A program made the translations under genes and the position numbers. The notes under the pieces were generated by a model. That model saw only the letters and a list, made by a program, of their open reading frames with translations, had not been told where the DNA came from and ran no database searches. A DNA stretch of 12,123 nt from a virus (taxonomy: Duplodnaviria; Heunggongvirae; Uroviricota; Caudoviricetes). Shown here in pieces: positions 3,793 through 7,135 of this stretch. The stretch spans positions 1 through 12,123 of IMG/VR virus record IMGVR_UViG_2802429235_000002. One strand, written 5' to 3'. How positions within the stretch are numbered: position 1 is the stretch's first letter; each line of letters begins with the position of its first letter.

Positions 3793-3879
3793 ATGGAAAA
3801 CAACAAATCTGCACATTACGCTCCTTTTTTATCTGTAATACTTTTTGTTTTATGCTGTGCGTGGGCATTATTTTTATAA
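3793..3879 (+). CDS. Candidate small hydrophobic peptide (28 aa): MENNKSAHYAPFLSVILFVLCCAWALFL
   Basis: ATG at 3793 preceded by AAGGTGAG at about 7 nt; single predicted transmembrane helix; lies in an AT-rich ORF-free spacer. Not in the supplied ORF track because it is under 60 aa. Confidence 0.3.
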   Translation: MENNKSAHYAPFLSVILFVLCCAWALFL

Positions 3880-3985: not shown

Positions 3986-4141
3986 TTACTCCTCAGGTTC
4001 GTAAGCTGTGAAGACAGCGACCTCCGTCTGCCCGGTTCGGATTCGTACCTCGCAGAGGTCTTTCCTCGTTACCAGTGCCGTCACAATGACGGTTAAACAG
4101 ATGACGATCAGGGCGATTAACATCGCCTTTTGCTGCTTCAT
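3986..4141 (-). CDS. hokD: Hok/Gef-family type I toxin (51 aa)
   Basis: MKQQKAMLIALIVICLTVIVTALVTRKDLCEVRIRTGQTEVAVFTAYEPEE matches the Hok family and, from memory, E. coli HokD/RelF. AAGGAG ribosome-binding site 9 nt upstream of ATG 4139-4141. An in-frame upstream ATG at 4198 gives a 19-aa N-terminal extension. Confidence 0.85.
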   Translation of the reverse strand: MKQQKAMLIALIVICLTVIVTALVTRKDLCEVRIRTGQTEVAVFTAYEPEE

Positions 4142-4352
4142 AGCCTGCTTCTCCTTGCCTTTCGGCACGTAAGAGGCTAACCTACATGTGCAAAGCATGA
4201 AATTGGCCTCAGATTAATGTTAAGCGTCTTGCCGGACGCGTAATGTTAACTGGGGCTTTTCTCTATCTGCCTTTGGTGTTCATGCCCGAGGCAGATAGCC
4301 TCAAGCACCCGCAGCAATTCTACTTAACTCCCGTCACCTCGCCAATATAAAA

Positions 4353-4442
4353 TCAATCAGAAAGGCGATCCATAAGAACAACAGCAAGACAATAAATTGC
4401 TATTACAGCAGCAATAGCCAGCGCACATTTGAGAACCAGCAC
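4353..4442 (-). CDS. Candidate small hydrophobic peptide (29 aa): MLVLKCALAIAAVIAIYCLAVVLMDRLSD
   Basis: Consensus AGGAGG Shine-Dalgarno 5 nt upstream of a GTG start at 4440-4442; single predicted transmembrane helix; sits between the hok gene and the 3' end of the NTPase gene. Under 60 aa, so absent from the ORF track. Confidence 0.4.
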   Translation of the reverse strand: MLVLKCALAIAAVIAIYCLAVVLMDRLSD

Positions 4443-4810
4443 GACAACCTCCTGTATTGGACGCACACCAGTCCTGATAAATATGAGGCTGTCTCGTCAG
4501 TGATTCAATACAACTATTGGGTATAGTTTATCTATTTTTTCTTTGGCAATGGAACACAACAGCCAAACATAACCAACACTTCTTCAGATGTATTAAGTCA
4601 GGCCCCAACCAGCATTTTGAGTAAGCAGTTCACTCAAATATGACTATCTGATTTGAGCGACGTGCGAACATTTACGATAGCTTCACTATGATTGATACAT
4701 TCTGCAATCTCTTTGTCTCAGAAAGTCGAAAGTAGCTTAAGCTATATTATCAAGAGGATAATCATCACATTGAAGGTCGATACGTTACCTTCAATGTGAC
4801 AATCTATTTA

Positions 4811-7069
4811 TTATTGAATTTGCAGGTTTGTACGTAAGGAACCTGTAGATTCCTCATATAACTTAGATATATAATTAGACATATCATGGTTACTTCGTAC
4901 TTTTTTATTGAATTTTTTCAGGTACTTATCAACCGTAGTGCTAAGTAGCCCTGAGTCGTCTGTAACGTGAGTTATCCCTAAATTAATCAAAACACCTAAT
5001 TTATTTTTTTCCACTAAGCTATCAAATGCGGATTTATCCCCGAGCTCATTCAGTGTTGATGCTATGAAGAAACGTGCATAATCAATATGTTCACCAATTT
5101 CCTCATATTGTTCAATTTGAACTGACAAGTCTTCCAAGGCAGATTTGAAAAAATCATATGCGTAATTGTTACTTAAACACTTTGTGAAAATACAAAGAAG
5201 AGCTACTGGTGAAAACTCCTTCAGCGGGATGTCGGTATTTCCCTTGAGAATATCAACATATAATTTACCTGCATCTATATATGATAAAAGGACTCCCCTC
5301 GTTATTTTTTTATACGGAGTTAGATATGAAGCCAAATAAAAAGAACCGTTATAAAATAACCTTAAAAATCTTGTTTTATCGTTACTAGGTTTAAGTTCAT
5401 TAATTTTATCAATAAGATATTCATTGTCTCTTAACAAACCAAAATAGAAGAAATAACTATTTGCCCAATAAATATCATAAATATTATCATTTATGTCTAT
5501 TAGGCCACGCTTCCTAAGTCCTTCAGCGTAAAAATACTCCATGAATGATCTGTGTAGAAATGAGAACGTATTACTTCTAACATTAACTGTTGTTACTTCA
5601 CTGCGATAAATTAGTCTTTTGAAAAGTTTGTCCTCATCAACATTCAAGTTTCTTTTGGCCAAATAATTTAAAAACATGTCCTGCACTTCTGAAATTGATA
5701 TGCAGTTTAGAGAGTTATCCATCATAAATATCGCAATTTCTACTAATATATTACTTATTACATCATATTCTGTTTGCGATAATAATCCCTTAGATGTATC
5801 CCATCGTCCCAATACTATCTCACTGTATTTTGAGTATAGTTCTGTCATTGTAGATGGTAATTCTTTAATCTCATCAGAGAGTATTCTTGCCAGAAGAATA
5901 GCGCTCACTGGAGTCCTGGGAATGAACTTAAATAGTGGTGTTTTTTCTATACCATTTTTAAGTTTATTTGTTATTTTAATGTCATTGCAGATTTTATCTA
6001 CAAAGTCGATTATTTGACCTGTGCTAAGTGGTATTATCGAGTATCTTGCAAACATCTGATCGATAACTTCATAGTCCTGAAGAGAATCCATAATTCTTGA
6101 AGCAACTAGTAATCGAATTTTATCATTCCTGGATACTTTCTCTACAATGTCCCTGAAGTTGTTTTGCCTTTCCTCAAGTGATTCCTTTACTTCATCCACC
6201 GAATCAACAATTAATAAAATATTCCCATCATGTTGTATTTTGTACTTACTTAACACACTTTGTATTATATTTTCAACATTAAGTTTTTTTTCTAGAACAT
6301 CCTTGTATTGACAAAATACTGGAAGGATGTAGTCTTTTTCGTAAGAATATTCTTCTTTTATTTTTCTAATTAACTGTTTCAGCAAAGTACTTTTCCCAGA
6401 GCCAACGGTTCCCTCTAAAAAAATAAATCTCTCGGCTCTCACAACACTATACAGTTTTAACGGCCTGTGTCTGCGTTTTTTATGATCTTCCTTGCTTACA
6501 TATCTATCAATAAGGTTATTTATGCCAACACTACCAAAAAAAGAGCTTTCAGGTGTATCACTTATGGTTTGCAATGTATCTGTTAAGTATTGTTCATAAT
6601 TAATGGATTCGAAATCCCAAAACTCTGGGTAATATTTACTGATTAAAGAACATATTTTTTCACCCTCTATAAATTTTATATTTGTAGATTTGAATTTCAA
6701 GTAAATTTTTTCTTGAGCATTATTTGAGATCGATGAATTAGTAATAACCCAAATTTCATTCAAATGTATGTTCTTAGAGCCAGAAGAAATAAAGCGTGGA
6801 TATAATTGACACTCTTCTATTTGTCGTTCAACCTCACTATTTGACTGAATTATCTTTCCAACTTTACAAATAACACCAATATATATTTCCTCGTCTAATG
6901 CCTCATCTCGTTTAATTATGACAAAATCAGCACCTTTTTCTGATGGTCCTTGCTTATATTCAACATGTGTAACAGTCGGCAAACGTGGTAGAAGCGCTCT
7001 TGGCACTGGATGGAAATCATCAACCTCACGTTGCAATGATTCTATTTTTCTTAAGTATTCTGGTTTCAT
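4811..7069 (-). CDS. NACHT/STAND-type P-loop NTPase, NLR-like (752 aa), with an unassigned N-terminal domain and helical C-terminal region
   Basis: Walker A GTVGSGKST (codons at 6386-6412); Walker B LLIVDSVDE (NACHT-style hhhhD-x-x-DE) followed by LLVASR, resembling the NACHT sensor-1 hhhTSR motif. About 205 aa precede the P-loop and about 270 aromatic-rich residues follow the NTPase core. AAGGT ribosome-binding site 7 nt upstream of ATG 7067-7069. The gene is conspicuously AT-rich compared with its neighbours. Confidence 0.8.
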   Translation of the reverse strand: MKPEYLRKIESLQREVDDFHPVPRALLPRLPTVTHVEYKQGPSEKGADFVIIKRDEALDEEIYIGVICKVGKIIQSNSEVERQIEECQLYPRFISSGSKNIHLNEIWVITNSSISNNAQEKIYLKFKSTNIKFIEGEKICSLISKYYPEFWDFESINYEQYLTDTLQTISDTPESSFFGSVGINNLIDRYVSKEDHKKRRHRPLKLYSVVRAERFIFLEGTVGSGKSTLLKQLIRKIKEEYSYEKDYILPVFCQYKDVLEKKLNVENIIQSVLSKYKIQHDGNILLIVDSVDEVKESLEERQNNFRDIVEKVSRNDKIRLLVASRIMDSLQDYEVIDQMFARYSIIPLSTGQIIDFVDKICNDIKITNKLKNGIEKTPLFKFIPRTPVSAILLARILSDEIKELPSTMTELYSKYSEIVLGRWDTSKGLLSQTEYDVISNILVEIAIFMMDNSLNCISISEVQDMFLNYLAKRNLNVDEDKLFKRLIYRSEVTTVNVRSNTFSFLHRSFMEYFYAEGLRKRGLIDINDNIYDIYWANSYFFYFGLLRDNEYLIDKINELKPSNDKTRFLRLFYNGSFYLASYLTPYKKITRGVLLSYIDAGKLYVDILKGNTDIPLKEFSPVALLCIFTKCLSNNYAYDFFKSALEDLSVQIEQYEEIGEHIDYARFFIASTLNELGDKSAFDSLVEKNKLGVLINLGITHVTDDSGLLSTTVDKYLKKFNKKVRSNHDMSNYISKLYEESTGSLRTNLQIQ

Positions 7070-7099
7070 TTGTTTACCTTAAACAGTATCCAAAAAAAT

Positions 7100-7135
7100 C
7101 ATTTTATATAACAATCATATTTCATACAATGTCAA
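7100..7135 (-). promoter_or_regulatory. Candidate sigma70 promoter for the NTPase gene
   Basis: On the minus strand a consensus TTGACA (plus 7130-7135) is followed 16-19 nt later by a TA-rich stretch (TGTTATATAA), about 35-60 nt upstream of the ATG. The exact -10 hexamer is ambiguous. Confidence 0.35.

What the first reader, a model, noticed from the sequence alone, without database searches (positions are those of the whole stretch)
4353..4442. Unannotated 29-aa hydrophobic peptide ORF with consensus ribosome-binding site next to the NTPase gene
Seen: AGGAGG, 5-nt spacer, GTG start, then MLVLKCALAIAAVIAIYCLAVVLMDRLSD, a single transmembrane helix with a short polar tail, co-oriented with and about 370 nt downstream of the NTPase gene. 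Inference: it could be a second type I toxin, a membrane partner of the NTPase, or a regulatory peptide.
Basis: partly seen in the sequence, partly recalled or inferred. Interest (0 to 1): 0.5.

Follow-up and report, generated by a model that had tools for sequence, protein, structure and literature searches.

The report
Conserved unannotated 29-aa prophage membrane peptide
The 29-codon reading frame is a real, evolutionarily conserved gene for a tiny membrane-spanning peptide that belongs to the backbone of Rac/Qin-type lambdoid prophages of Escherichia (next to the hokD toxin locus), not to the neighbouring NACHT defence gene, and its function is still unknown.

Summary
On the minus strand, AGGAGG (4453-4448), a 5-nt spacer and GTG (4442) open a 29-codon ORF ending at TGA 4355-4353, 368 nt downstream of the NACHT gene.

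It is a real gene under purifying selection. 125 of 126 sampled copies are intact. 21 of 36 substitution events are synonymous (10.7 ± 2.4 expected). Pairwise dN/dS is 0.09-0.40. Indels are in frame only. Mosaic breakpoints on both sides leave exactly SD + ORF as the shared unit.

It occurs in 1,958 of 5,426 complete E. coli genomes and in no genus outside Escherichia/Shigella. RefSeq did not annotate it in any row sampled, and it matches no Pfam, NCBIfam, PHROG or PADLOC family.

It lies at the right edge of a variable cargo slot: NACHT here; Drt2+RipA, SIR2, QueH or HigBA elsewhere. It sits 7 nt upstream of the hokD promoter. So it is not a partner of the NTPase.

The type I toxin reading lacks support: no conserved antisense promoter, an unstructured mRNA, an exposed consensus SD.

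It persists under selection where hok has been lost.

Best reading: an autonomous small single-pass inner-membrane protein of the phage backbone with a probable promoter of its own. Its molecular role is untested.

The parts
4353..4442 (-). Small ORF: GTG start, 29 codons, TGA stop. Encodes MLVLKCALAIAAVIAIYCLAVVLMDRLSD, a predicted single transmembrane helix (about C6-M24) with an acidic tail DRLSD.
   Evidence: sequence; 125 of 126 copies intact; 21 synonymous, 15 non-synonymous and 0 stop events, against 10.7 ± 2.4 synonymous expected; dN/dS 0.09-0.40; only in-frame indels; invariant V13, Y17, C18.
4448..4453 (-). Shine-Dalgarno AGGAGG, 5 nt before the GTG.
   Evidence: nucleotide diversity 0.027, against 0.19 in the spacer and the upstream block. 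A GGAG core at the same spacing is kept in four unrelated upstream contexts.
4480..4508 (-). Probable sigma-70 promoter of the small ORF: -35 TTGAAT (4508-4503), 17-nt spacer, -10 CATATT (4485-4480). The predicted TSS is about 4475-4473, giving a 5' UTR of about 32 nt that includes a conserved GTnTnCGTC box (about 4467-4459).
   Evidence: Phylogenetic footprint: both hexamers and the 17-nt spacing are invariant in upstream types 1-3 and in L136, while the spacer and flanks are unalignable. It scores 8/12 to consensus, so the scan missed it. It is absent in L135 (operonic) and in 8 'tctcat' copies. Promoter activity is inferred, not shown.
4584..4631 (-). Zone where homology with other prophages begins. 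This is the right border of the variable cargo slot. The cargo on the far side (here the NACHT gene, 7069-4811) is not part of the unit.
   Evidence: partial matches start at query 220 or 267, i.e. window 4631 or 4584.
4317..4345 (-). Context, not part of the gene: the hokD promoter TTGGCG-17-TAGAAT. Its -35 begins 7 nt after the small ORF's stop, and no terminator lies between them.
   Evidence: promoter scan; no terminator between 4353 and 4310.
3986..4310 (-). Context: the hok/sok locus. Leader and Sok target 4310-4136, mok 4198-3986, hokD 4141-3986.
   Evidence: Rfam RF01794, 115.8 bits, E = 2e-27; ORFs; hokD annotation.

Best explanation
The ORF is a genuine protein-coding gene of the backbone of Rac/Qin-type lambdoid (pro)phages of Escherichia. 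It makes a 29-residue single-pass inner-membrane peptide. By the positive-inside rule the predicted topology is N-in (K5) and C-out (acidic tail D-R-L-S-D). It is translated from a consensus SD and a GTG start. It is probably transcribed from its own modest sigma-70 promoter (TTGAAT-17-CATATT) and, on induction, by read-through of the early-right operon with which it is co-oriented. It marks the right border of a cargo slot in which defence and other accessory genes are exchanged, and it lies immediately 5' of the hokD type I toxin locus. It is functionally independent of the cargo, including the NACHT NTPase here, and does not depend on hok. Inferred mechanism, not shown: it acts through sequence-specific helix contacts, using the invariant V13/Y17/C18 core (I/V)YCL and the conserved tail LM(D/E)RLSD. 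It would bind and modulate a host or phage membrane protein, as the ≤50-aa single-TM modulators of E. coli do (KdpF, MgtS, AcrZ, MgrB type). It would not act as a bulk membrane-damaging toxin.
For: Shown: the frame is intact in 125 of 126 copies. In a sample not anchored on the ORF, about 64 of 136 hokD-type loci carry it. There is an excess of synonymous change, 21 of 36 events against 10.7 ± 2.4 simulated, with 0 of 20,000 simulations reaching 21, and every other frame is worse or contains stops. Third-position diversity is about 2.5 times that of first and second positions. dN/dS is 0.11, 0.18, 0.32, 0.38 and 0.40 against divergent members. Indels are +3 and +6 nt only. All 15 amino-acid replacements are conservative. 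Homology breaks just 5' of the SD in three independent upstream types and within about 15 nt of the stop in the hok-less class, so SD + ORF is the minimal shared module. It is independent of the cargo: NACHT, Drt2+RipA, SMEK+methyltransferase, QueH, SIR2, deaminase+SIR2-like, ORF6N and HigBA all occur upstream, and there are 12 NACHT-linked genomes against 1,958 with the ORF. It is independent of hok: two hok-less alleles differ at dS 0.57 with dN/dS 0.09. It is carried by viable lambdoid phages: mEp460, Evi, Tritos, HannyBb. The promoter footprint is conserved in four unalignable contexts. Inferred: the non-toxic modulator role. This rests on position-specific conservation in mid-helix, an exposed consensus SD with no antisense control, and near-universal intactness.
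Against: There is no direct evidence of transcription, translation or membrane insertion. The peptide was not found in the one searchable RIBOseq supplement (EHEC Sakai), and it is unknown whether that strain carries the ORF. The family is young and narrow, limited to Escherichia/Shigella and mostly ≥80% identical, so the counts rest on few independent events; one pair (REL606 against the window) has dN/dS of about 1 on 8 changes. The gene is dispensable: many hokD-type loci lack it or keep only a 3' remnant, and K-12 lost it to relBE. The promoter is sub-consensus (8/12) and missing in some copies. The proposed modulator mechanism has no partner identified. The near-constant adjacency to hok could mean a link that these data cannot see.
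Confidence: 0.68

Rival explanations
1. It is a second type I toxin: a small pore-forming or membrane-depolarising peptide whose translation is held in check by an antisense or divergent small RNA not yet identified.
For: The size (29 aa), the single hydrophobic helix and the prophage location beside a bona fide type I system (hokD) fit the class. In this window a + strand promoter-like site (TTAACT-18-TAAAAT, 4324-4353) would drive an RNA antisense to the ORF.
Against: That antisense -10 is present in only about a third of copies and is absent from the hok-less class. No other antisense promoter or terminator was found. The mRNA folds no better than shuffles (z = -0.32). There is no conserved or covarying structure, and the SD is unpaired. 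The predicted 5' UTR is only about 32 nt. No Pfam, NCBIfam, PHROG or PADLOC toxin family matches at E ≤ 10. Position-specific conservation (V13, Y17, C18 and the tail) is more than generic hydrophobicity requires.
Confidence: 0.12
2. It is a functional component of the prophage hokD module, for example the first cistron of a longer sORF-mok-hok transcript, or a membrane peptide that modulates Hok insertion or toxicity as a helper or protector.
For: About 116 of 126 copies abut hokD with an invariant 7-nt gap between the stop and the hok -35, and no terminator lies between them, so transcripts from the upstream promoter must enter hok. Divergent members in L135, L136 and L195 are again directly 5' of a Hok/Gef gene. 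The hok-less class appears to retain a relic of the hok/sok leader, so the linkage looks ancestral. A different 27-aa hydrophobic ORF ends at the same position in 20 other hokD loci.
Against: The ORF is kept under strong purifying selection where hok is gone (dN/dS 0.09 at dS 0.57). Roughly half of hokD-type loci, and K-12, have no such ORF. The alt27 ORF is a separate gene that can sit in tandem with it (L195), so the two are not positional substitutes. Adjacency may simply reflect gene order in a mosaic phage backbone.
Confidence: 0.12
3. It is a regulatory leader peptide (uORF) whose translation, rather than its product, controls downstream transcription or hok expression.
For: It is short, has a strong SD, lies immediately upstream of another promoter and leader, and has no intervening terminator.
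Against: Selection acts on the amino-acid sequence: there is a synonymous excess, replacements are conservative and some residues are invariant. No conserved attenuator or terminator hairpin exists. The internal 'terminator-like' hairpin at 4418-4399 is weak and not kept in L135. The downstream context differs between classes.
Confidence: 0.05
4. It is a membrane partner or effector of the adjacent NACHT NTPase defence protein.
For: It is co-oriented and 368 nt downstream. Some STAND/NLR-like systems use membrane effectors (general knowledge).
Against: Only 12 of 5,426 genomes have the NACHT-ORF arrangement, against 1,958 with the ORF. The ORF lies in the conserved flank outside the cargo breakpoint (4631/4584) and accompanies at least eight unrelated cargos. 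A perfect 13-bp-stem hairpin separates it from the NACHT gene.
Confidence: 0.02
5. It is not a gene: the open frame is fortuitous, and conservation reflects a DNA- or RNA-level element such as the hok upstream region or a recombination flank.
For: The flanking hok promoter and leader are about as conserved at the nucleotide level (π about 0.05). RefSeq does not call the ORF.
Against: The evidence includes codon-periodic diversity, a synonymous excess with P < 5e-5, in-frame indels only, a conserved SD and spacing despite unrelated upstream DNA, and no RNA structure or covariation.
Confidence: 0.03

Closest known systems
Small (≤50 aa) single-transmembrane proteins of E. coli that modulate larger membrane proteins (KdpF 29 aa, MgtS 31 aa, AcrZ 49 aa, MgrB 47 aa, PmrR about 29 aa)
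   Same: Size; one hydrophobic helix with short polar ends; own SD; missed by annotation pipelines; residue-specific conservation within the helix.
   Different: There is no sequence relationship (no NCBIfam or Pfam hit). It is encoded on a prophage, not the core genome. It is restricted to Escherichia/Shigella. No partner is known. The resemblance is one of kind and comes from my own knowledge of these proteins; no family membership is claimed.
Hok/Gef family type I toxins (Pfam PF01848), e.g. the adjacent hokD
   Same: N-terminal basic residue followed by one TM helix; prophage location; same strand; immediately adjacent.
   Different: It is 29 aa rather than about 50 aa and has no periplasmic domain. 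It has no PF01848 match at E ≤ 10. It has no mok-like overlapping frame, no fold-back leader, no Sok-like antisense RNA and an unstructured mRNA.
Short type I toxins with divergent or antisense sRNAs (TisB/IstR, ShoB/OhsC, ZorO/OrzO, DinQ/AgrB, Ibs/Sib, Ldr/Rdl)
   Same: Peptide length (19-35 aa) and hydrophobicity.
   Different: No family hit. No conserved sRNA promoter. A short, unstructured 5' UTR with an exposed consensus SD, whereas those mRNAs have long structured leaders. The comparison with those leaders is from my own knowledge.
Phage 'morons' and small phage membrane proteins expressed from prophages (e.g. superinfection-exclusion or lysis-modulating factors)
   Same: A small autonomous unit with a probable promoter of its own, between backbone genes of a lambdoid phage; mosaic boundaries coincide with the gene.
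   Different: It has no terminator of its own. It is much smaller than characterised exclusion proteins. No PHROG family includes it. No phenotype is known.

Membership tests
Type I toxin-antitoxin toxin (class) | Small (<60 aa) hydrophobic peptide with a predicted transmembrane helix | tested here: met
   29 aa; the best 17-residue window has mean Kyte-Doolittle hydropathy 2.9.
Type I toxin-antitoxin toxin (class) | A cis-antisense or divergent small RNA antitoxin with its own conserved promoter | tested here: not met
   The only antisense promoter-like site (4324-4353, +) has its -10 in about a third of copies and is absent in the hok-less class. No + strand terminator was found. A trans-encoded RNA elsewhere cannot be excluded.
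Type I toxin-antitoxin toxin (class) | Toxin mRNA with stable, conserved structure sequestering the SD | tested here: not met
   MFE z-score -0.32 against 200 shuffles. The consensus fold leaves the SD unpaired, and 0 pairs covary.
Type I toxin-antitoxin toxin (class) | Toxicity or membrane depolarisation on expression | not testable with these tools
   Needs an over-expression experiment.
Hok/Gef (PF01848) | Match to the family profile; about 50 aa with a C-terminal periplasmic domain | tested here: not met
   No Pfam hit at E ≤ 10. The peptide is 29 aa and ends 5 residues after the helix.
Other curated small-toxin, small-protein, phage or defence families (Pfam, NCBIfam, PHROGs, PADLOC) | Significant profile match | tested here: not met
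   0 families in Pfam, NCBIfam and PADLOC. Best PHROG match E = 1.
Component of the NACHT (bacterial NLR-related) defence system | Consistent co-occurrence with the NACHT gene | tested here: not met
   12 genomes have the NACHT + ORF arrangement, against 1,958 with the ORF. At least 8 different cargos occupy the slot.
Leader peptide / regulatory uORF | Constraint on translation and on an overlapping attenuator structure, not on the peptide sequence | tested here: not met
   There is amino-acid-level purifying selection and no conserved terminator or antiterminator.
Bona fide protein-coding small gene | Reading frame, start and SD maintained across divergent homologues, with dN/dS < 1 | tested here: met
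Bona fide protein-coding small gene | Direct evidence of translation | not testable with these tools
   No ribosome-profiling or proteomic data are reachable for a strain shown to carry it. The search of the Hücker 2017 supplements was empty.
Phage moron (promoter-gene-terminator cassette) | Own promoter | tested here: inconclusive
   TTGAA(T/G)-17-CATATT is conserved in four unalignable contexts, but it is sub-consensus and absent in some copies. Activity is untested.
Phage moron (promoter-gene-terminator cassette) | Own terminator | tested here: not met
   There is no terminator between the stop (4353) and the hok promoter or leader.

The most novel reading that the evidence does not exclude
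The peptide, perhaps together with the unrelated 27-aa hydrophobic ORF that ends at the same position in other prophages, is an unrecognised protein component of prophage hokD modules or of prophage-mediated exclusion. It could be a membrane peptide that gates or buffers Hok, co-transcribed with hok from the upstream promoter. Or it could block a host membrane function needed by superinfecting phages. Either would add a third player to a textbook two-component type I system.
Probability: 0.12. Interest if true: 0.65.

Novelty: new member of a known kind. Interest (0 to 1): 0.4.

Why it matters
About a third of sequenced E. coli genomes, including E. coli B (REL606), the type strain ATCC 11775 and O55:H7 and UPEC lineages, carry a conserved gene that RefSeq did not annotate in any row sampled. 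K-12-based small-protein surveys could not see it, because K-12 lost it to the relBE insertion. It adds a family to the small membrane proteome. It also provides a landmark for the right border of a defence-gene cargo slot in Rac/Qin-type prophages. Finally, it warns that fragments cloned with 'native downstream sequence' from this slot may carry an extra membrane-peptide gene, and hokD, alongside the defence gene under test. Without a phenotype its importance is modest.

Tried and rejected
1. The 37-aa form from GTG 4466. Rejected: the upstream start and frame are not conserved.
2. The antisense promoter at 4324-4353 (+) as a Sok-like antitoxin promoter. Rejected: it is not conserved.
3. A conserved RNA structure or SD sequestration. 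None found.
4. Rfam. Only the hok/sok leader at 4310-4136 is significant. The weak L25-leader hit at 4399-4418 (19 bits against a gathering score of 34) and the 'terminator-like' hairpin at 4418-4399 are chance; they lie over the AIYC codons and are not kept in L135.
5. Complementarity between 4484-4494 and the hok 5' end at 4293-4303. It is not conserved in upstream types 2 and 3, so I treat it as chance.
6. Homology to known families (Pfam, NCBIfam, PHROGs, PADLOC). None.
7. Distant relatives. The exhaustive HMM search of 1.84 billion proteins gave 15 hits, all small proteins of the same family and none a larger parent protein. The species-representative genome scan found only Escherichia/Shigella, plus three MAG contigs that are probably contaminants.
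8. Literature. The peptide string is absent from 8 million full texts and from the supplements of the EHEC Sakai RIBOseq study. Searches on hokD/small protein and on lambdoid hotspots returned nothing about this ORF. The published bNACHT accessions do not include this NACHT protein.
9. The antisense open frame across the ORF. It has 7 synonymous, 27 non-synonymous and 2 stop events, so it is not coding.

Full report
**1. What is in the sequence**

The feature is on the minus strand. Reading 5'→3' on that strand, AGGAGG is at 4453-4448, the spacer ttgtc at 4447-4443 and GTG at 4442-4440. Then come 28 further codons and TGA at 4355-4353, giving MLVLKCALAIAAVIAIYCLAVVLMDRLSD. It is co-oriented with the 752-aa NACHT gene (7069-4811), and 368 nt separate the two. 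In 300 dinucleotide-preserving shuffles of the window, no AGGAGG + start + 20-60 aa ORF with a TM-like segment arose. A longer in-frame form from GTG 4466 (37 aa) exists here, and some gene callers chose it. But that start is lost in other copies, and some copies are frame-shifted upstream while the 29-aa core stays constant.

**2. Genomic setting**

The window is a Rac-type lambdoid prophage of E. coli. Its gene order on the minus strand is ydaT-ydaU-ydaV-DUF1627-DUF977-[NACHT]-small ORF-hokD-DUF1367-DUF1364-DUF1133(Q-like)-lysis genes-trkG.
- Just downstream of the ORF lies a complete hok/sok locus. The hok promoter TTGGCG-17-TAGAAT is at 4345-4317.
- The hok leader and Sok target match Rfam RF01794 at 4310-4136 with 115.8 bits.
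- mok is at 4198-3986 and hokD at 4141-3986.
- The ORF's stop is 7 nt from the hok -35, and no terminator lies between them.

Homology with other genomes starts at about 4631 or 4584 and runs through the ORF into hokD. What lies between DUF977 and that point varies:
- NACHT here, in only 12 of 5,426 complete genomes
- Drt2+RipA
- SMEK + methyltransferase
- QueH
- SIR2
- deaminase-like + SIR2-like genes
- several small phage genes
- ORF6N and HigBA

The ORF therefore sits in the conserved right flank of a cargo slot. It is not part of the NACHT system.

**3. Distribution**

The 125-nt SD + ORF segment is present in 1,958 of 5,426 complete E. coli genomes, with 2,238 copies, almost all chromosomal. 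None of 40 rows spread across the ranking carries an annotated feature there. Carriers include REL606, the type strain ATCC 11775, NU14 and O55:H7 strains. K-12 lacks it because relBE sits 71 nt upstream of hokD in Qin and replaces both the hok leader and the ORF. That explains its absence from K-12 small-protein catalogues.

It is carried by four deposited lambdoid phages: mEp460, Evi, Tritos and HannyBb. In one genome per species across 185,579 species, only Shigella flexneri, E. ruysiae and E. albertii carry it. Three short MAG contigs at 93-96% identity also matched and are most likely mis-binned E. coli prophage DNA. An exhaustive HMM search of 1.84 billion representative proteins found 15 hits. 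All are small proteins of this family, apart from spurious upstream read-throughs, and there is no larger parent protein. Some submitter annotations call it 'putative membrane protein'. No Pfam, NCBIfam, PHROG or PADLOC family contains it. The peptide string appears in no searchable paper.

**4. Is it coding?**

Several independent tests point the same way.
- (a) Among 126 copies recovered from phage contigs and genomes, 125 keep a 29-codon frame. The exception is a stop-loss that adds two residues.
- (b) Among 25 intact alleles there are 36 distinct substitution events: 21 synonymous, 15 non-synonymous and 0 nonsense. A simulation with the same transition/transversion counts gives 10.7 ± 2.4 synonymous events, and none of 20,000 runs reached 21. 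Every alternative frame gives fewer synonymous events or contains stop codons. This includes the antisense frame that happens to be open, which scores 7 synonymous, 27 non-synonymous and 2 stop events.
- (c) All 15 replacements are conservative: A/T/V, V/L/I, M/V/I/T, C/F, D/E/N, R/H, L/F, S/T.
- (d) In 80 close relatives, nucleotide diversity is 0.044, 0.037 and 0.100 at codon positions 1, 2 and 3. It is 0.027 in the SD, against 0.19 in the spacer and the upstream block. No copy has an indel in the ORF.
- (e) Nei-Gojobori dN/dS against the window is 0.11 (L126), 0.18 (L135), 0.32 (L127), 0.38 (L136) and 0.40 (L211). One close pair (REL606) is about 1, on only 8 changes.
- (f) The most divergent members differ by indels of +3 and +6 nt only.
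- (g) Mosaic boundaries frame the gene. Three unrelated upstream sequence types, plus L135, converge just 5' of the SD. In a class lacking hok, downstream homology ends within about 15 nt of the stop.
- (h) No RNA-level explanation is available. The predicted transcript folds no better than shuffles (z = -0.32), and the consensus fold has no covarying pair and leaves the SD unpaired.

Degraded copies do exist, as expected for a dispensable prophage gene. There is a deletion of the N-terminal half in an IS-ridden prophage (L128). There are also 3' remnants where a cargo breakpoint fell inside the ORF (L170, L203, L205, L218).

**5. Expression signals**

The SD core GGAG, at constant spacing, survives in all contexts. 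Upstream, TTGAA(T/G), 17 nt and CATATT (window 4508-4503 and 4485-4480) are invariant in three unalignable upstream types and in L136, while the spacer sequence differs completely. I read this as the footprint of a modest sigma-70 promoter. It scores 8/12 to consensus, below the threshold of the scan. A short GTnTnCGTC box follows it.

The promoter is absent in L135, where the ORF follows an ORF6N gene by about 50 nt and is probably operonic. It is also absent in eight 'tctcat' copies. Promoter activity is inferred, not shown. Because no terminator follows the ORF, transcripts from this promoter should continue into the hok locus.

**6. What it is not**

- *Not a NACHT partner.* See sections 2 and 3.
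- *Not convincingly a type I toxin.* The single antisense promoter-like site (4324-4353, +) has a good -10 (TATAAAAT) in only about a third of copies. The majority read TATGAAAT or TGTGAAAT, and the hok-less class has unrelated sequence beyond the ~15 nt it still shares after the stop. There is no antisense terminator, no structured leader and no family match.
- *Not a pure leader peptide.* Selection is on the residues.
- *Not dependent on hok.* Two hok-less alleles (L059 and L126) differ at dS 0.57 with dN/dS 0.09.

**7. The wider family and its neighbours**

I anchored a second scan on the hok leader instead of on the ORF, which gave 136 hokD-type loci:
- About 58 have the intact family member.
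- 4 have a distant 34-aa member, MSDDISLAMEGALAVIAVVGVYCLVVFLMDRLGN.
- 2 have a stop-loss form of 35 aa.
- 20 carry an unrelated 27-aa hydrophobic ORF, MTWPEAFTTVGIAMAVALVVYSICRWG. It has a strong SD, and its stop is 43 nt from the anchor, against 44 nt for this ORF.
- 3 carry a 59-aa two-TM ORF.
- About 51 have none.

L195 has the alt27-like ORF and the 34-aa member in tandem before hok. The two are therefore distinct genes in a run of small membrane-protein genes of the phage early-right region, not variants of one gene.

Across all members, V13, Y17 and C18 are invariant. L2, L8, A9, I10, I16, L19 and L23 are nearly so. The tail keeps (D/E/N)(R/H)(L/I/F)(S/F/G)(D/E/N).

**8. Most likely mechanism**

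*Shown:* this is a conserved, selected small gene with translation signals, of phage-backbone origin, independent of its cargo and of hok.

*Inferred:* the product is a single-pass inner-membrane peptide. By the positive-inside rule it is N-in (K5) and C-out, with a net acidic tail. Three features argue for a tolerated peptide that works through specific helix-helix contact with a host or phage membrane protein, as KdpF-, MgtS-, AcrZ- or MgrB-type modulators do. These are the residue-specific mid-helix constraint (I/V-Y-C-L) with a conserved tail, the exposed consensus SD without antisense control, and the near-universal intactness. They argue against a bulk membrane poison. The comparison with those proteins is from my own knowledge and is a resemblance of kind, not a claim of membership. 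A role tied to hok (co-transcription, or modulation of Hok) or to superinfection exclusion remains possible; I give about 0.12 to such a reading.

**9. Novelty and score**

This is an uncharacterised family of small membrane proteins: a new member of a known kind. It is not surprising to a specialist, since new small proteins are found regularly. It is still a solid, widespread gene that RefSeq did not annotate in any row sampled, with a curious constant position beside a classic toxin locus. Interest 0.4.

Noticed in passing
window 3793-3879 (+): A second small hydrophobic ORF, MENNKSAHYAPFLSVILFVLCCAWALFL (28 aa), with SD aaggtgag 6 nt before the ATG. It is convergent with hokD, in the spacer between hokD and DUF1367. 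Homologous DNA is in 36 fetched loci. 24 read as an intact 28-aa frame; the remaining 12 may be mapping offsets. It matches no PHROG or PADLOC family.
   Followed up: partly
L151 around 3691; L144; 20 of 136 hok-anchored loci: A different 27-aa hydrophobic ORF, MTWPEAFTTVGIAMAVALVVYSICRWG, with SD AGGAGGTG. Its ATG overlaps the stop of an upstream 114-194 aa phage gene (ATGA). It ends 43 nt before the hok-leader anchor, the same place where the studied ORF ends (44 nt). L195 has an alt27-like ORF and a 34-aa member of the studied family in tandem.
   Followed up: partly
window about 4584-7100 and the equivalent stretch in L002, L003, L059, L125-L127, L135, L136, L229: The interval between the DUF977 gene and the conserved block upstream of hokD is a cargo hotspot in Rac/Qin-type prophages. 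It holds NACHT, Drt2+RipA, SMEK+methyltransferase, QueH, SIR2, deaminase+SIR2-like genes, ORF6N or HigBA. In K-12 Qin it holds relBE.
   Followed up: partly
window 4765-4799: A perfect 13-bp inverted repeat (TCACATTGAAGGT / ACCTTCAATGTGA, 9-nt loop) about 12 nt after the NACHT stop codon, with no T-run after it. It could be a transcript-stabilising or terminator hairpin, or a recombination site at the cargo end.
   Followed up: no
L195, L143, L146, L206, L139, L158 (between the small ORF or its remnant and the hok promoter): A perfect 20-bp palindrome, GATATGGGAATTCCCATATC, sits just upstream of the hok promoter in one class of hokD loci. It is absent from the window.
   Followed up: no
L013, L036, L059, L063, L073, L094, L101, L126: In the hok-less class, the hokD locus is replaced by an opposite-strand DUF1971 gene. 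A stretch resembling the Sok-encoding part of the hok leader (tccggcaagg…cattaatctgaag) remains, which suggests derivation from a hok-linked ancestor.
   Followed up: partly
L129, L131, L132 (genome contigs): Short contigs binned as Collinsella, 'Candidatus Scatousia' and Haemophilus MAGs carry the ORF at 93-96% identity. They are almost certainly mis-binned E. coli prophage DNA.
   Followed up: no
window 4811-7069 (-): The NACHT protein (WP_033801850.1 in strain M8) is rare: 12 of 5,426 complete genomes. It gives only weak PADLOC hits (HerA-like P-loop, E = 5e-6). It is not among the bNACHT accessions listed in PMC12169576.
   Followed up: partly
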